Shown here one piece after another: positions 3,001 to 61,665 of a stretch of DNA of 64,000 nucleotides (its first letter is position 1; every line of letters begins with the position of its first letter). The notes below the pieces were generated by a model. That model had not been told where the DNA came from. It saw nothing but the letters and a program-made list of their open reading frames with translations, and did no database searches. The stretch is from Sphyrna mokarran. Lineage: Eukaryota. The stretch is taken from positions 3,224,001 through 3,288,000 of the forward strand of contig JAGIQG010000030.1 of the NCBI GenBank assembly GCA_024679065.1, read 5' to 3'. A program made the position numbers and the translations under genes.

Positions 3001-3135
3001 GTTTAAATAAATTTTAGAGAAACGAGTAGTGAAAGTTCTAAAAAAAAAGACACGCAAATAGATGTTTTCCAGGAAGACAGGTTTCAAGCCTTTTGAAAAA
3101 GGAGTAACTTTCATGAAACTGCCTCAAGTAAGAAC

Positions 3136-3378
3136 TGTAAGAAGTCTCACAACACCAGGTTTATTTGATATCACAGGCTTTCACCTGATGAAGCAGCAAT
3201 GTTCCAAAAGCTTGTGACTCATCTCATGAGGGAGCAGCACTCTGAAAGCTTGTGACTCACCTATTGAAAGAGTAGTGCTCTGAAAATTCATGATACCAAA
3301 TAAACCTGTTGGACTTTAACCTGGTGTTGTGAGACTTCTTACTGTGCCCACCCAGTCCAATGCTGGCATCTCCACATT
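3136..3378 (+). mobile_element. Penelope-like palindromic non-autonomous element with three tandem hammerhead motifs
   Basis: Inverted arms gtaagaagtctcacaacaccaggtt / aacctggtgttgtgagacttcttac, ~40-nt unique tail, TSD aagtaagaac (3126-3135, 3379-3388). Confidence 0.75.
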
Positions 3379-3477
3379 AAGTAAGAACCAACATCATCTA
3401 TTTGATACCAATGTGTTGAATCTCTGCTCCTGACAATAGAATGCTCCTCCTTGACCTTTTATACAAAATTCTTTACC

Positions 3478-4406
3478 CTATTTTATAAATGACCTAGATG
3501 AGGGTGTAGAGGGTTGGATTAGTAAATTTGCTGACGATACCAAAGTGGGGGGAGTTGTAGACAGCGAGGATGGATGTTACAGTTTGCAGAGGGACGTAGG
3601 TTGCAGAGCTGGGCCGTGAGGTGGCAAATGGAATTCAATACTGATAAGTGTGAGGAGATTCACTTTGGTAGGAATAACAGGCATATGAAATATAGGGCTA
3701 ATGGAAGGACCCTTAATAGTGTTGTCGAGCAGAGGGATCTTGGGGTACAAGTACATAGCTCTTTGAAAGTTGGCACCCAGGTTGATAAAGTTGTTAAGAA
3801 GGCGTACGGTGTGTTAGCTTTTATTGGTAGAGGGATTGAATTTAGGAGCCGTGAGATTATGTTACAACTGTACAAAACTCTGGTGCGGCCGCACTTGGAG
3901 TATTGCGTACAGTTCTGGTCGCCGCATTATAAGAAAGATGTGGAAGCATTGGAAAGGGTGCAGAGGAGGTTTACCAGGATGTTGCCTGGTATGGTGGGAA
4001 GGCCTTATGAGGAAAGGCTGAGGGACCTGAGGTTATTTTCATTAGAGAGAAGAAGGTTATGCGGTGACCTAATTGAGGCGTATAAGATGATCAAAGGATT
4101 GGATAGGGTGGATAGTGAGAGCCTTTTTCCTCGGATGGTGATGATCAACACGAGGGGACATAACTTTAAATTAAGAGGTGGTAGTTATAGGACGGATGTC
4201 AGAGGCAGGCTCTTCACACAGAGGGTGGTGAGGGCGTGGAATGCCCTGCCTACAGCAGATGTGGACTCGCCTACTTTGGGGGCATTCAAATGTTCGGTGG
4301 ATAGGCATATGGATGATATTGGAATAGTTTAGGTTAGAGGGTCCACTGGCCGGCGCAACATTGAGGGCCGAAGGGCCTGTACTGCGCTGTTATGTTCTAT
4401 GTTCTA
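3478..4406 (+). mobile_element. CR1-clade (HER1-like) LINE, 5'-truncated, RT C-terminus
   Basis: KFADDTKVGG, then the 252-aa ORF with LYKTLVRPHLEYCVQFWSP and FTQRVVRAWNALP. 3' tail gggccgaagggcctgt..(gttctat)n. Confidence 0.95.
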
Positions 4407-4872
4407 TTGGAACTGGCAAAAACATGACCAAATCTTGAGGGAGGCAACCAAAGTAATCTTATGACTTCAGGTCTAGAGGGTCCAAGCTCTGACAATGCCA
4501 AATTTGATAGGAATTGGGATGGATTTTGGAAAACTTCCTATTCACAGCAATTTACTAAGGTTTGCCTCAGACTTTTCCAGATTGCCCTGGACACTTAAAC
4601 ATGTGTTTAATTGCAAGTAGAGATTTCTAAACTTTAGTTAGAAGAGATAGCGGCATTTAGTGAAGTTACAGGTGCAGGCAGTGATTTTTTTAACATGGAA
4701 GATACAGGTCAAAGAGCAGCATTTTAGAGAAAGTAATGGTGTAAGTGATGAACTTTTTCCTCTACTTGATGACTTGCCTATTTTTTTTATATTTTCAAAA
4801 TGTGTATGTAGTAACCGTTGCTTAAGTAGTTTGAAGTGTTTCCATGTGCACTTGTAATTCTGACAAAGTCTA

Positions 4873-10737: not shown

Positions 10738-11345
10738 GACATTGATAGGATACAGAGCTGGGCTGAAAAGTGGCAGATGGAGTTTAACCCTGATAAGTGT
10801 GAGGTGATTTATTTTGGTAGGACAAACTTGAATGCGGATTGCAGGGTTTCGAGGAATGTGGAGGAACAGAGATTTAAGGATTCATATCCACAGATCTCTG
10901 AAGGTGGCCACTCAAGTAGATAGAGCCATGAAGAAGGCTTATTGTGTGTTAGCGTTTATTAACAGGGGGTTTGAGTTATGGGGTTATGCTGCAATTCTAC
11001 AGGACCTTGATGAGACTCACTTGGAATAGTGTGGACAATTCTTGTTACCTCACTCTTAGGAGGATGTGGAAGTATTGGAGAGAGTGCAGGAGAGATTTAT
11101 CAGGATGCTGCCTAGTTTGGAGAATAGGTCTTATGAGGAAAGGTTGAGGGAGCTGGGACTTTTTAGAGCAGAAGAGGTTGAGACACAACTTAATAGAAGT
11201 TTATAAGATGATGGGGGGGGGGGGTATAGATAGTCTCTGAACGTCCACTCAATTTCCTCAGTTGGATATAGTGGTACTAGGGGGCATAACTTTAAGGTTC
11301 ATGGTGGGAGATAAAGGTAGATTCTTTACTCAGAGTGGTTGGGTG
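10738..11345 (+). mobile_element. Decayed CR1 LINE fragment
   Basis: Homologous to 3600-4230, with frameshifts. Confidence 0.9.
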
Positions 11346-11615
11346 AGCAGGTTATTGCTGAGTACTGCTTTGTCAAATTGCATCACACAAATGCCAGACA
11401 ATATCCAATGAGAGAGAATCTAACAATTGACGCTTGATATTTAATGACATTGCCATCACTAAATCCTGCACTGTTAACATCCTGGGGGTTACCATTGACA
11501 CAAACTGAACTGTACTAGCCATATAGCTACAAAAGTAAGTCAGATGCTAGCAATCCTGAGTTGAGTAATTCACCTCCTTATTCTCCAAAGTTGTCCACCT
11601 GTCTACAAAGCACAA

Positions 11616-12014
11616 TAAGAAGTCTCACAACACCAGGTTAAAGTCCAACAGATTTATTTGGTAGTCACAAGCTTTCAGAGCGCTGCTCCTTTATCAGATG
11701 AGTGGGAGTCATGTTCACAAACAGGGCATATAAAGACACAAACTCAATTTACAAGATGTTAGAATGAGAGCCTTTACAGGTAGTCAAAACTTGATTACCT
11801 ATAAAGACACGCATTCCAACCATTATCTTGTAAATTGAGTTTGTGTCTTTATATGCCTTGTTTGTGAACATGACTCCCACTCATCTGATAAAGGAGCAGC
11901 GCTCTGAAAGCTTGTGGCTTGTGATACCAAATAAATCTGTTGGACCTTAACCTGGTATTGTAAGACTTATTACTGTGCTTACTCTAGTCCAATGCTGGCA
12001 TCACCATATCATGG
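11616..12014 (+). mobile_element. Penelope-like palindromic element (~360-bp hairpin plus tail) with a hammerhead motif in each arm
   Basis: Near-perfect inverted repeat centred at ~11789. 13-bp TSD ctacaaagcacaa (11603-11615, 12015-12027). Inserted in an older LINE. Confidence 0.8.
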
Positions 12015-12097
12015 CTACAAAGCACAAGTCAGGAATGTGATAGACCTGACTGGATAAGTGCAATTCCAACAACACTGAAGAAGCTCAACAGCAAGTA

Positions 12098-12398
12098 ATG
12101 CACAAGGAGGCATTTGGCCTATCAAGCCTACACTGACAACAATCTCATCCACATTCTGTCCTATCCCTGTAATCCCATGTATTTACCCTCCTAAACCCCC
12201 TGACATTAAGGGTCAATTTAGCGTGACCAATCTGCCTAACTTGCACATCATTGGACTGTAGAAGGAAACGAGCACCCAGAGGAAACCCACAGAGACATAG
12301 GGAGAATGTGCAAACACCACACAGACAGTGACCCGAAGCTAGAATTGAACTCAGGTCCCTGATGCTGTGAGGCAGCAATGCTAACCACTGTGCCACCC
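12098..12398 (-). mobile_element. V-SINE tail A
   Basis: Family homology within window. Confidence 0.85.
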
Positions 12399-12473
12399 AT
12401 TCTGCATTAGATTTGTCAGTTTCAGTTGCAGAATAATTCCTCTACATCTATCGTTGCTAATCTGACTTAACAG

Positions 12474-13563: not shown

Positions 13564-13732
13564 AATTCCCTCACTACACGGCTATTTGATGACTTAGAAA
13601 CGTTAGGACTTTTAGCTTGAAACCAGCTTCAGACCTCATTTGCTTTGTTGCAATACTCATTTCTCTTTGCTTGCCACACGGGGTTTACTCTGTATGGACG
13701 TGGTTTAAACACTGTTGGTTTTTTGTACACAG

Positions 13733-13899
13733 AGTAAGAAGTCTGACAACATCAGGTTTAAATCCAACCGATTTATTTGATAGTAAAATTTACTATCAAA
13801 GATAGAGTTTACTGTCAAATAAATCAGTTGTATTTAAATCTGGTGTTGTCAGACTTCTTACTGTGTTTACCCCAATCCAACGCCGGCATCTCTACATCA
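13733..13899 (+). mobile_element. Penelope-like palindromic element, short version lacking the hammerhead
   Basis: Same arm ends and tail as the other copies. ~17-bp imperfect TSD tggttttttgta(a)cacag. Confidence 0.75.
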
Positions 13900-14332
13900 T
13901 GGTTTTTTGTAACACAGCCCTGACTGATCCTTTATATCCAGTTATAATGTGCTCGTTATTAAATGTTATTAATAACATTTGTGGGCTGAAAAATTGAGGC
14001 TGACTCCTAATGTGAGTACAGTTTATTGTGGCTGGAAAGGGGATCATCTTGCATGCTAAATATGTGCAAAAGTAGAAAATGGGGTTCTCTTATAGGCCAA
14101 GATGACCTGTTTGCTGTAATCTATGGTAAATATAGTTTTCACGCTGCTCAGAATGGATGTGGTTATAGCCTAATCTGGATCTTTAGTAGGAAATTCAATG
14201 CGTCAATGTCCAATAGGGTCAGGATTCAAGTTGGGTAAATTCAAAATGTATAGAGGTTAACATACCTCTAGATTCATAACCTTACATTCAAAAGGATTAT
14301 ATTGGATTGATTTCCAGTTATGAACTTGTGTG

Positions 14333-21091: not shown

Positions 21092-21250
21092 AAGTCTCAC
21101 AACATCAGGTTAAAGTCCAACCAATTTGTTTGATATTAATCCCACAAGCTTTCGGAAATGATGTTCCTTCGTCAGGTGTGTGAAAGGCATATAAAGACAC
21201 ACACAGTTTACAGAACACTGATTTGAATGCAAGTCTTTACAGCTAACCTG
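21092..21250 (-). mobile_element. Penelope-like element, single arm
   Basis: Homologous to 11620-11785. Confidence 0.7.
21143..21178 (-). ncRNA. Minimal type I hammerhead ribozyme motif, intact core
   Basis: Minus strand reads CAC-CTGACGA-A-GGAA-catcat-TTCC-GAAA-GCT-T-GTG: stem I CAC/GTG, stem II GGAA/TTCC, palindromic AGCT in place of stem III. Confidence 0.6.
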
Positions 21251-22031: not shown

Positions 22032-22098
22032 ATGGCGTTTTGGAGGTCGCCTGTACCCCGCTGCTGTTTGTTGGGTTCTCTCCTGGTGGCTCTCGGGG
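22032..22098 (+). CDS. IGDCC3: IGDCC3 (Punc) coding exon 1, signal peptide MAFWRSPVPRCCLLGSLLVALG(D)
   Basis: ATG in gtaATGG context with an in-frame TGA at 22023-22025. Hydrophobic signal-like peptide. Donor G|gtgagt at 22099 is phase 1 and joins exon 2 in frame (G+AC=Asp). Lies in a CpG-richer region. Confidence 0.8.
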
Positions 22099-29313: not shown

Positions 29314-29850
29314 TGGTGGCATGATGTCAGAGTGGTAAGCACTGCTACCTCACAGCGCCAGGGACCAGAGTTCGATTCCCAGCTTGGGCTATTGTCTGTA
29401 TAGAGTCTGCATCTTCTCCCCGTGACTACGTAGGTTTCTTCCGGATTCTCTGGTTTCCTGCCACAGTCTGAAAGATATGTTGGTTAAGTGCATTAGTCTT
29501 ACTAAAGTCTCCCTGACTGTACCCGAACAGGCATCAGAGTGTGGTGACTAGGGGATTTTCACAGTAGCTTCATTGCAGCATTAATGTAGCCATGACATGT
29601 AGATGCTGGCATTGGACTGAGGCGGACACTGTAAGAACTCTCATAACACTCAACTAAAGTCCAATTGATTTATTTGGAATCGTGAGCTGCTCCTTCATCA
29701 ATTGAGTGGCTACTCACCTGATGAAGGAGCAGTGCCCTGAATGTTCGTGATTCCAGATAGACCTCTTGGAATTTAGCCTGGCGTTGTGAGACTTCTTATA
29801 GTTTATGTTTATGAAAACCTACTTTGACAATAATAGATAAACTTGAAACT
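29314..29850 (+). mobile_element. V-SINE tail B interrupted by Penelope-like element
   Basis: Tail resumes at ~29805 (cctactttgacaataatagataaac). Confidence 0.8.
29592..29799 (-). mobile_element. Penelope-like palindromic element inserted in a SINE tail
   Basis: Tail on the left, degenerate inverted arms. Plus-strand hammerhead remnant tcacCTGATGAaggagcagtgccctGAAt at 29714-29750. Confidence 0.7.
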
Positions 29851-29900: not shown

Positions 29901-30266
<366 letters not shown>

Positions 30267-37425: not shown

Positions 37426-37730
37426 GGGCAGCACAGTGGCACAGTCATTAGCACTGCTGCCTCACAGTGCCAGGGATGCAGGTTTGATTGCTGGTTTGGA
37501 TCAGTATCTGCGGAGTTTGCACATTTTCCCCGTGTCTGTGTGGGCTCCTTCCTGGTGCTCCGGTTTCCTTCCACAGTCTGAATGCTGTGTGGGTTGGGTG
37601 CATTGGCTATGCTGAATTCTCACTCAGTGTACCCAAACAGGTGCCAGAATGTGGCAACCAGGGGCTTTTCACAGTAACTTCATTGCAGTGTTAATGTAAC
37701 CCTACTTGTGACACTAATAAATAAACTTTT
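37426..37730 (+). mobile_element. V-SINE tail B
   Basis: Family homology within window. Confidence 0.85.
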
Positions 37731-59923: not shown

Positions 59924-61665
59924 ATAGAACATAGAACATAGAACATAGAACATTACAGCGCAGAACAGGCCCTTCGGCCTTCGATGTTGCGCCGACCATT
60001 ATAAAAAGCAATGACCCTCCAAACTAATCCATTCCCTTCTCTTCCATAAACTTATCAACTAACCTCTTAAACGCCACCAAACTTGGCGCATCTACAACTG
60101 CCGCAGGCAGGGCATTCCACTCCCTAACCACCCTCTGGGTAAAGAACCTACATCTGATATCCGTCCTATAACTATCACCCTTTAATTTAAAGCTGTGTCC
60201 CCTCGTGCTAGCTTTCTCCATCCTAGGAAAAAGGCTATCACTGTCCACCCTATCTAAACCTCTAATCATCTTATATGTTTCAATAAGGTCTCCTCTTAGC
60301 CGCCTTCTTTCTAACGAAACAACCTCAAATCTCTCAGCCTCTCTTCATAAGACCTGCCCTCCATACCAGGCAACATCCTGGTAAACCTCCTCTGTACCCT
60401 CTCCAATGCCTCGACATCTTTCTTATAATGTGGCGACCAGAACTGCACACAATACTCCAAGTGCGGCCGCACTAGAGTTTTGTACAGTTGCAACATGACG
60501 TTGCGGCTCCGAAATTCAATCCCCCTACCAATAAAAGCAAAGACTCCGTATGCCTTCTTAACAACCTTATCGACTTGACTGCCTACTTTCAGGGATCTAT
60601 GCACAAATACACCAAGATGCCTCTGTTCATCAACACTATTAAGAATCCTACCATTAGCCCTATACTCTACACATTTATTATTCCTGCCAAAGTGCATTAC
60701 CTCACACTTTTCCACATTAAACTCCATTTGCCACCTCTCGGCCCAGCTCTGCAACTTGTCCAAGTCACTCTGTAAACTAAAACACCCCTCTTCACTATCT
60801 ACAACTCCACCAACTTTAGTGTCATCTGCAAATTTACTGATCCATCCCTCAATACCCTCATCCAGAGCATTTATAAAAATTACAAACAGCAGGGGCCCCA
60901 AAACAGACCCCTGAGGCACACCACTCGTCACCGAACTCCACGATGAATATCTCCCATCAACCACCCCCCTCTGTCTTCTAGCTGCTAGCCAATTCCTAAC
61001 CCAATTAGCTAAATCACCCTCTATCCCATACATCTGCATTTTCTGCAGAAGTCTTCCATGGGCCACCTTATCAAACGCCTTACTAAAGACCATATATACC
61101 ACATCAACTGCCTTACCCCCATCCACCTCTTTGGTCACTTTTTCAAAAAACTCAATAAGGTTAGTAAGGCACGACCTACCCTTCACAAAACCATGCTGAC
61201 TATCCCAATCAATTCATTTCTCTCTAAATAACTATAAATCCTATCCCTAATAATTCTCTCCAATACCTTGCCCACAACAGAAGTACGACTCACTGGCCTA
61301 TAATTCCCTGGAAGGTCTCTCTTCCCCTTCTTAAACAATGGGACCACATGCGCTATCCTCCAGTCCTCCGGAACCACACCCGTAACCAACGACGACCTGA
61401 AGATCAGAGCCAGAGGCTCTGCAATCGCCTCTCTTGCCTCCCAGAAAATCCTAGGGTAAATCCTATCCGGCCCAGGGGACTTATCCAACTTCAAACCCTC
61501 AAGAATATCTAGCACATCCTCCCTATCTACTTCAATACCTTCCAGTTTGCAACCCTGTACCTCAGTGTTCTCCACAACTACATTTACATCTCCCTGCGTG
61601 AATACCGAAGAGAAATATTTATTCAGTGCCTCTCCAATCTCTTCAGGCTCCACGCACAACTTCAT
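59924..61665 (-). mobile_element. CR1-clade (HER1-like) LINE, 5'-truncated, frameshifted ORF2
   Basis: ORF pieces with KSPGPD, NYRPVS, KAFDKV, VPQGSVLGP and FADDTK. (atagaac)n tail at ~59924-59952. Confidence 0.95.

What the first reader, a model, noticed from the sequence alone, without database searches (positions are those of the whole stretch)
11616..12014. Small non-coding palindromic retroelements carrying minimal hammerhead ribozymes (retrozyme-like, Penelope-derived)
Seen: five related copies (3136, 11616, 13733, 21092, 29592). Four share one layout: an inverted arm, a direct arm and a ~40-nt unique tail (actgtg..cccagtccaa(c/t)gc(c/t)ggcatctccacat). Three have clear TSDs of different lengths (10, 13 and ~17 bp). 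The arms carry TCAY-CTGANGA-A-GGAGC-agc-GCTCY-GAAA-GCT-T-GTGA. Known: variable TSDs indicate target-primed retrotransposition rather than cut-and-paste. Penelope-like elements have inverted pseudo-LTRs, short 3' tails and minimal type I hammerheads whose palindromic stem III works as a dimer. Inference: an abundant, protein-free shark family mobilised in trans, leaving long dsRNA hairpins with ribozyme motifs on both strands. This copy's cores read CTGATAA (G8 lost) and are probably inactive. I cannot tell whether this particular family has already been described.
Basis: partly seen in the sequence, partly recalled or inferred. Interest (0 to 1): 0.75.

Follow-up and report, generated by a model that had tools for sequence, protein, structure and literature searches.

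The report
Truncated shark Penelope-like retrotransposon ends
These short palindromic repeats are real, but they are the decayed, folded-back end pieces of an ordinary protein-coding shark retrotransposon that carries a small self-cutting RNA motif, a known kind of product rather than a new protein-free element.

Summary
The five repeats exist. Four have an inverted arm, a direct arm, a ~42-nt tail and 10-17-bp target duplications. The majority of the units is a perfect minimal type I hammerhead, but only copy 21092 keeps an intact core, and copy 13733 has no hammerhead. They do not look like a stand-alone retrozyme. Lengths and fold-back points differ, and the layout is the published 5'-truncated, inverted Penelope-like (PLE) insertion. 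Protein searches link the tail to a coding PLE: its translation runs into the start Met of a shark ORF family with PLE-type DKG and RT motifs. The GIY-YIG endonuclease was not reached. In copy 11616 a 93-nt tract looks homogenised between the arms (1 difference in 92 versus 11 in 79, p=0.0014), which explains the shared G8 loss. The hairpin would bury the ribozyme. One lead remains: the fold-back points fall near a predicted transcription start and the predicted cleavage site (n=5, post hoc). Verdict: new member of a known kind, interest 0.3.

The parts
11603..11615 (+). Copy B left target-site duplication (13 bp exact)
   Evidence: repeated at 12015-12027
11616..11787 (-). Copy B inverted, tailless pseudo-LTR arm
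11664..11701 (-). Minimal type I hammerhead in the inverted arm, G8 lost
11784..11794 (.). Fold-back centre of B (3-nt loop at 11788-11790)
11791..11972 (+). Copy B direct pseudo-LTR arm
11825..11919 (+). Tract nearly identical to 11663-11757 (1 difference in 92 aligned columns); inferred arm-to-arm homogenisation
11848..11855 (+). TATA-like motif, 163 nt before the ATG (promoter role inferred, not tested)
11881..11918 (+). Minimal type I hammerhead in the direct arm, G8 lost; predicted cleavage after 11913 in an intact version
11973..12014 (+). PLE 'tail' (42 nt), with a 3'-splice-site-like AG at 11986-11987 and an ATG at 12011 inferred to be the start codon of the PLE ORF
12015..12027 (+). 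Copy B right target-site duplication
3136..3378 (+). Copy A: short inverted arm, three tandem 38-nt hammerhead units (3181-3294), direct arm, tail; 10-bp TSD at 3126-3135 and 3379-3388
13733..13899 (+). Copy C: short palindrome plus tail, no hammerhead; TSD at 13716-13732 and 13900-13917
21092..21250 (-). Copy D: single tailless arm with the only intact hammerhead core (C3 at 21175); partner arm, tail and TSD not found
29592..29805 (-). Copy E: palindrome plus tail inserted in a SINE 3' end; decayed ~14-bp TSD at 29579-29591 and 29806-29819

Best explanation
The five repeats are dead, 5'-truncated insertions of the pseudo-LTR of a protein-coding, endonuclease-type Penelope-like retrotransposon of sharks. 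SHOWN: nested arms that share outer ends; a tail at one end only; variable TSDs; a hammerhead majority sequence; tail translation in frame with the start of a shark PLE-type ORF. INFERRED: the element's own RT/endonuclease makes a staggered cut (10-17 bp). It starts reverse transcription inside its RNA at two sites about 42 nt apart, the tail end and the tail start, as measured in vitro for the anole PLE. Synthesis stops after 60-220 nt. The products join head to head, by fold-back self-priming or by joining two cDNAs, so the inverted arm lacks the tail. The hammerhead belongs to the parent's pseudo-LTR, needs a second copy to form helix III, and has no role in the inserted copies: they decay neutrally, and in a read-through RNA the long hairpin buries the motif. 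In copy B, later arm-to-arm homogenisation put the G8 mutation in both arms.
For: Layout, tail and TSDs match passages in PMC8557442 (inverted 5'-truncated copy, 30-40-bp tail at one end), PMC3846280 (8-10-bp TSDs, junction palindromes, tail covering the ORF start), PMC2377424 and PMC4209133 (paired minimal hammerheads 100-700 bp apart on opposite strands, attributed to truncated PLEs). A profile of the repeat's translation found 7 unnamed proteins. Three of 7 stop matching at the tail start, two of them running into LINE RT; 4 of 7 enter or cross the tail. P0009 joins the tail to an ORF fragment whose relatives are NCBI Mustelus asterias and Heptranchias perlo proteins. In P0011, the 8 residues before the Met that aligns with P0010's first Met match the tail translation: 6 of 8 for P0009 and P0003 (P=7e-7), 4 of 8 for each of window copies B, C and E (P=1e-4 to 6e-4). 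P0010 has a DKG motif (a PLE motif per PMC8557442). P0012 shares 78% over 107 aa with P0010 and has an RT region (RVT_1 E=0.012; Atlas 0.96 to HTH_animal clusters). Core lesions differ among A1, A2, A3, B and E. All 9 hammerhead stem pairs have probability 0.000 in the whole palindrome.
Against: No PLE ORF remnant lies in the window, so the link rests on proteins from other records. None of them reaches a GIY-YIG domain, and the RT match is weak: Pfam E=0.012, no PDB hit, unusable model with pLDDT 32. No single record shows hammerhead, tail and RT together. The two longest copies end within 2 nt of each other, which a short master or a fixed template end would also give. Covariation is not detectable. 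The junctions show 2-7-nt matches between target and element (read), whereas the anole PLE primed without homology in vitro.
Confidence: 0.8

Rival explanations
1. A short non-autonomous PLE derivative (solo pseudo-LTR, internally deleted element or palindromic master of about 220 nt per arm) is the transcribed source and is mobilised in trans by a PLE protein; the shorter copies are its truncations.
For: B and D, the longest copies, end at -220 and -218 and may share centre sequence (757 of 20000 random 30-mers score as well, so weak). P0009 looks internally deleted. PLE trans-mobilisation and non-autonomous families are reported. No ORF-containing copy occurs among the 5.
Against: Inner ends and centres differ in A, C and E. 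Copies fall into at least two sequence types (C resembles P0003: 23 of 30 residues). B and E continue past the ATG as M-A-T, like the ORF's M-T-T start, though this overlaps the TSD.
Confidence: 0.14
2. A true non-LTR retrozyme: RNA is cut by paired hammerheads, circularised and reverse-transcribed by rolling circle.
For: Copy A has three head-to-tail 38-nt hammerhead units, each with different lesions, so they were probably intact when triplicated. Retrozymes derive from PLE pseudo-LTRs and were counted in one chondrichthyan genome.
Against: 4 of 5 copies have no tandem hammerheads. The 38-nt unit is below the 51-972-bp range reported. The motif is the minimal PLE type rather than the canonical type. 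The triplet sits inside an ordinary PLE-type insertion and is explained by slippage.
Confidence: 0.04
3. A MITE or fold-back DNA transposon with a chance hammerhead look-alike.
For: Short, non-coding, long inverted arms.
Against: TSDs of 10, 13, ~14 and ~17 bp; a 42-nt tail outside the inverted repeat at one end only; chance rate of the descriptor about 5e-5 per 230-nt element; in-frame link to an RT-bearing ORF family.
Confidence: 0.02

Closest known systems
5'-truncated, inverted insertions of endonuclease-bearing Penelope-like elements (Penelope/Poseidon, Neptune; PMC8557442, PMC3846280, PMC2377424)
   Same: Inverted tailless copy beside a direct copy, one-sided tail at the ORF start, palindromic junction, variable TSD, hammerhead in the pseudo-LTR.
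   Different: These copies keep no ORF. The tail is 42 nt and ends at the ATG rather than inside the ORF. TSDs reach 17 bp versus 8-10 bp in the rotifer passages read. I found no paper on this shark family; Dfam and Repbase could not be checked.
PLE minimal type I hammerheads (Cervera and de la Pena 2014, PMC4209133)
   Same: Short helix I, unpaired nucleotide before stem II, G10.1-C11.1 pair (seen in A1 and D), palindromic 15.2-16.2, opposite-strand pairs 100-700 bp apart.
   Different: Stem II is 5 bp rather than 7-8. The parts read name fishes, coelacanth, frog and reptiles but no shark; one supplementary file could not be searched.
Poseidon of Anolis carolinensis (Frangieh et al. 2024, PMC11167929)
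   Same: Tail bounded by two ends that fit two internal RT start sites; C/A-rich tail downstream of the hammerhead.
   Different: There the ORF begins at hammerhead stem II and priming needed no homology. Here the ATG lies about 97 nt after the cleavage site, and the junctions show short matches.
Non-LTR retrozymes (PMC7229834; bioRxiv 10.64898/2026.07.22.740005)
   Same: Non-coding, PLE pseudo-LTR-derived, type I hammerhead, larger TSDs.
   Different: Retrozymes are head-to-tail arrays with a hammerhead in each unit and are expressed as circles. These copies are head-to-head, of variable length and nearly all core-mutant.

Membership tests
Penelope-like element (EN+) insertion | 5'-truncated direct copy with adjacent inverted copy | tested here: met
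   4 of 5 copies; D has one arm
Penelope-like element (EN+) insertion | 30-40-bp tail at one end only | tested here: met
   About 42 nt in 4 of 4 two-armed copies
Penelope-like element (EN+) insertion | Variable target-site duplication | tested here: met
   10, 13, ~17 and a decayed ~14 bp; none found for D
Penelope-like element (EN+) insertion | Hammerhead motif in the pseudo-LTR | tested here: met
   Majority unit perfect; intact core in 1 of 7 units; 4 hits in 300 shuffles
Penelope-like element (EN+) insertion | Pseudo-LTR and tail adjoin the start of a PLE RT ORF | tested here: met
   Indirect, through P0009-P0012 from other records; no ORF in the window
Penelope-like element (EN+) insertion | C-terminal GIY-YIG endonuclease in the parent | tested here: inconclusive
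   The fetched proteins end before it; no Pfam hit
Neptune clade of PLEs | CX2-5CxxC linker between RT and endonuclease; RT phylogeny | tested here: inconclusive
   P0012 ends with a CxxC but lacks the first Cys; no tree was built
PLE minimal type I hammerhead | Covariation in stems I and II | tested here: inconclusive
   90.5% of cells paired; 1 double-sided change; not above shuffles; only 7 decayed units
PLE minimal type I hammerhead | Self-cleavage as a dimer or with protein help | not testable with these tools
   Needs an in vitro assay
Rfam hammerhead families | Covariance-model match | tested here: not met
   No hammerhead hit
Non-LTR retrozyme | Head-to-tail repeats of about 150-450 bp, each with a complete hammerhead | tested here: not met
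   Head-to-head; the only tandem is 3 x 38 nt in A, all core-mutant
Non-LTR retrozyme | Constant monomer length | tested here: not met
   Inner ends from -220 to about -98
Non-LTR retrozyme | Expression as circular RNA | not testable with these tools
   No RNA data
MITE / DNA transposon | Inverted repeats at both termini and fixed-length TSD | tested here: not met
   One-sided tail; TSDs of 10-17 bp

The most novel reading that the evidence does not exclude
The fold-back points are not random truncations but mark 5' ends of the template RNA. RT would prime at the tail beside the ORF start of ordinary PLE mRNA and run off either the transcription start (E -134, A -130; TATA-like motif at -163) or the end made by hammerhead cleavage (C, about -98 to -92; predicted cut at -97), with a third class at the pseudo-LTR boundary (B -220, D -218). 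Shark genomes would then hold many thousands of fossil records of in vivo cleavage by a PLE ribozyme and of how inverted PLE ends form, both open questions in the papers read. Support is five copies, post hoc: P=0.036 for two close pairs under uniform ends, and C's start depends on gap placement.
Probability: 0.17. Interest if true: 0.7.

Novelty: new member of a known kind. Interest (0 to 1): 0.3.

Why it matters
As it stands, this is annotation: a shark PLE pseudo-LTR with a textbook minimal hammerhead, at one copy per ~13 kb and 1.9% of this window. It extends the PLE-hammerhead link to sharks, for which my searches found no description. Its value is as material. Many short copies with readable TSDs, two fixed outer ends and countable fold-back points could test how PLE inverted ends form and whether the ribozyme cuts in vivo. 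The palindromes also record arm-to-arm homogenisation.

Tried and rejected
Rfam scans gave no hammerhead model hit; the miRNA-type hits at B reflect only the long hairpin. Pfam on 27 of 35 stop-free frames of 110 aa or more and on 118 of 167 frames of 70-109 aa (those left out mostly overlap SINE copies) found only an Ig exon and a LINE-type RT. tblastn of P0010-P0012 over all six frames found nothing at E up to 0.05. A motif scan for PLE protein signatures (recalled patterns) gave only scattered chance matches. A single-sequence protein search with copy B's translation scored 0 of 4 candidates. P0012 had no PDB sequence hit, and its single-sequence model was unusable, so no fold search was run. 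Searches for three window motifs in papers found 0; supplement searches found 0. I first read C's variants shared by both arms as conversion, then rejected this, because at least one recurs in P0003-type relatives and points to a subfamily. The divergence figures include flanks and misaligned ends and are not used for dating. No partner arm, tail or TSD was found for D. Accessions for P0009-P0012 could not be looked up. No eukaryotic DNA collection, Dfam or Repbase was available, and the bacterial, phage and plasmid collections were not searched as they do not bear on the question.

Full report
OBSERVATION. Permissive BLAST of the focal copy found five loci and no more (ungapped probes agree): A 3136-3378, B 11616-12014, C 13733-13899, D 21092-~21250 and E 29592-~29805. 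Over the shared 48-column outer arm, the nine arms are 67-98% identical. A, B, C and E have an inverted arm without tail, a direct arm and a ~42-nt tail. TSDs are 10 bp (A), 13 bp (B) and 12 exact or 17/18 with an indel (C). One of 400 random flank pairs reached 12 bp or more with one mismatch. E interrupts a SINE 3' end. Of 11 other SINE ends printed, 10 show the intact site, and 14 nt of it appear, decayed, on both sides of E. D has one arm; no tail or TSD was found.

HAMMERHEAD. The majority of five units gives a 4-bp stem I, CUGAUGA, an unpaired A, a 5-bp stem II, GAAA, palindromic AGCU and UH. This is the minimal PLE type described in PMC4209133 (parts 1-2 of 4 read). Six of 7 full-length units carry core lesions, different in each copy (A1 G12, A2 G5, A3 G5 and A6, both B arms G8, E A15.1); only D is intact. 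A strict descriptor hits D alone, against 4 hits in 300 shuffled windows, so the motif is not chance. Against the reading: Rfam gave no hammerhead hit, and covariation is not above shuffles. Seven decaying units have little power for that test. C has no hammerhead. B folds as a -271 kcal/mol hairpin in which all 9 hammerhead stem pairs have probability 0.000. In the isolated arm, stem II forms at 0.53-0.62 and stem I at about 0.01. The palindrome therefore buries the motif rather than pairing two ribozymes.

LINK TO A CODING ELEMENT. The window has no PLE ORF. I aligned translations of the repeat, with X at stops, and searched protein sets for records that happen to read through it. Six unnamed proteins matched and a seventh on the second pass. 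P0004, P0005 and P0007 stop matching at the tail start, two of them continuing into LINE RT. P0003, P0006, P0008 and P0009 enter or cross the tail. The same two outer ends thus recur outside this window. P0009 joins the tail to a fragment of a real ORF. That fragment found 3 proteins among 25 candidates: Mustelus asterias P0010, Heptranchias perlo P0011 and EukProt P0012. P0011 carries the tail translation directly before the Met that aligns with P0010's first residue. The match is 6 of 8 residues for P0009 and P0003 (P=7e-7) and 4 of 8 for each of B, C and E (P=1e-4 to 6e-4). P0010 has a DKG motif, named as a PLE motif in PMC8557442 (passages). P0012 is 78% identical to P0010 over 107 aa and continues into an RT (RVT_1 E=0.012; weak bacterial RT matches; Atlas 0.96 to HTH_animal clusters). 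That its motif spacing is PLE-like is my recall, not a call result. No record reaches a GIY-YIG domain, so endonuclease type and clade are open. The window's species was not determined; the named relatives are sharks.

MECHANISM. PMC8557442 describes PLE insertions as highly 5'-truncated, often with an adjacent inverted truncated copy and a 30-40-bp tail at one end. PMC3846280 (passages) adds 8-10-bp TSDs, junction palindromes read as self-priming, and a tail covering the ORF start. PMC2377424 (passages) notes inverted repeats that vary in size by copy. PMC11167929 (parts 1-2 of 4) shows cleavage of both strands, two internal RT start sites that bound the tail, and insertion in vitro that does not need hammerhead activity. 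These fit: a staggered cut, priming at the tail end and tail start, short cDNAs and a head-to-head join. These steps are inferred. B, C and E have arms that start at the same point with 0-4-nt loops; A's arms are unequal and meet at a 3-nt overlap. Fold-back and twin priming cannot be separated here. Junction matches of 2-7 nt between target and element, read by eye and not tested against chance, differ from the in vitro result.

COPY B. Its arms differ at 1 of 92 columns in the middle but at 6 of 29 inside and 5 of 50 outside (Fisher p=0.0014 with the tract chosen from the data; run test P=0.006). The tract holds three variants found in both B arms and not in the majority of other copies, including the G8 change. 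Arm-to-arm homogenisation after insertion is the simplest reading. A source that already carried the variants would not explain the uneven divergence.

RETROZYME? Animal retrozymes are head-to-tail repeats with a hammerhead in each unit, expressed as circles (PMC7229834, passages; bioRxiv 10.64898/2026.07.22.740005, parts 1-3 of 5). The two structural features that can be tested fail. Only A's 3 x 38-nt run resembles them. That preprint counts retrozymes in one chondrichthyan; its supplements could not be seen and may list this family. The dimer study by Lunse et al. is recalled, not read.

THE LEAD. Relative to the ATG, the inner ends lie at -220 (B), -218 (D), -134 (E), -130 (A direct; -103 inverted) and about -98 (C; -92 with another gap placement). 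Landmarks are a TATA-like motif at -163, the predicted cut at -97, a branch-point-like motif at -41 and an AG at -25. Two close pairs have P=0.036 under uniform ends, post hoc, and the similarity of the B and D centres is weak (757 of 20000). If genome-wide peaks exist, the copies record RNA 5' ends, including ribozyme-cut ones. I give this 0.17.

NOVELTY. Paper searches for PLE, hammerhead and shark (1 paper, PMC6155905, whose passages use 'shark' only for the fold's shape), Neptune with shark (0), shark genomes with Penelope (listing only), solo pLTR and three sequence motifs (0) found no description of this family. Dfam, Repbase and subscription papers were not available, so it may be catalogued. 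Every structural feature is known. Verdict: real feature, new member of a known kind, interest 0.3.

Noticed in passing
window 22035-22097 and 29955-30261 (+): Probable first exons of a host gene: a signal-peptide-like exon and an Ig-domain exon (Pfam I-set; best whole-domain PDB matches are DCC). IGDCC3/punc is my recalled guess. Copy D lies ~0.8 kb upstream of the first exon and copy E ~150 bp upstream of the Ig exon.
   Followed up: partly
window 3181-3294: Three tandem 38-nt units that each span exactly one hammerhead, with 5-9 differences each from the majority, while the same copy's outer arm is 47 of 48 identical to B's inverted arm; CpG decay explains only part.
   Followed up: partly
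window 11914-11987: Possible ~70-nt intron: a GT directly after the predicted hammerhead cut, a branch-like motif at the tailless end, and an AG in the tail. P0011's similarity to the tail begins at that AG, as a splice there would give. The donor is untested.
   Followed up: partly
window 29628-29681 versus 29749-29802: E's arms are only 74% complementary, and B's arms differ by a 6-nt indel whose long form also occurs in D and in P0003-type relatives. The two arms of one insertion might come from different template RNAs.
   Followed up: no
window 11300-11615 and 12015-12095: B's flanks read as one continuous, decayed frame across the TSD and look like an old LINE (recalled resemblance; no second full copy in the window).
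   Followed up: partly
window 3481-4407, 10746-11212, 59938-61400: LINE fragments with an RT domain (RVT_1 at 60314-61213); CR1-like by recall.
   Followed up: partly
window-wide, e.g. 12096-12400, 37431-37736, 49955-50250: About 30 copies of one or two SINE families dominate the self-comparison; not identified.
   Followed up: no
protein P0008: Carries an arm in one orientation and, about 25 residues later, the tail in the opposite orientation (14 of 14 identical to copy C's reverse translation): a tail-to-tail arrangement not seen in the window.
   Followed up: no
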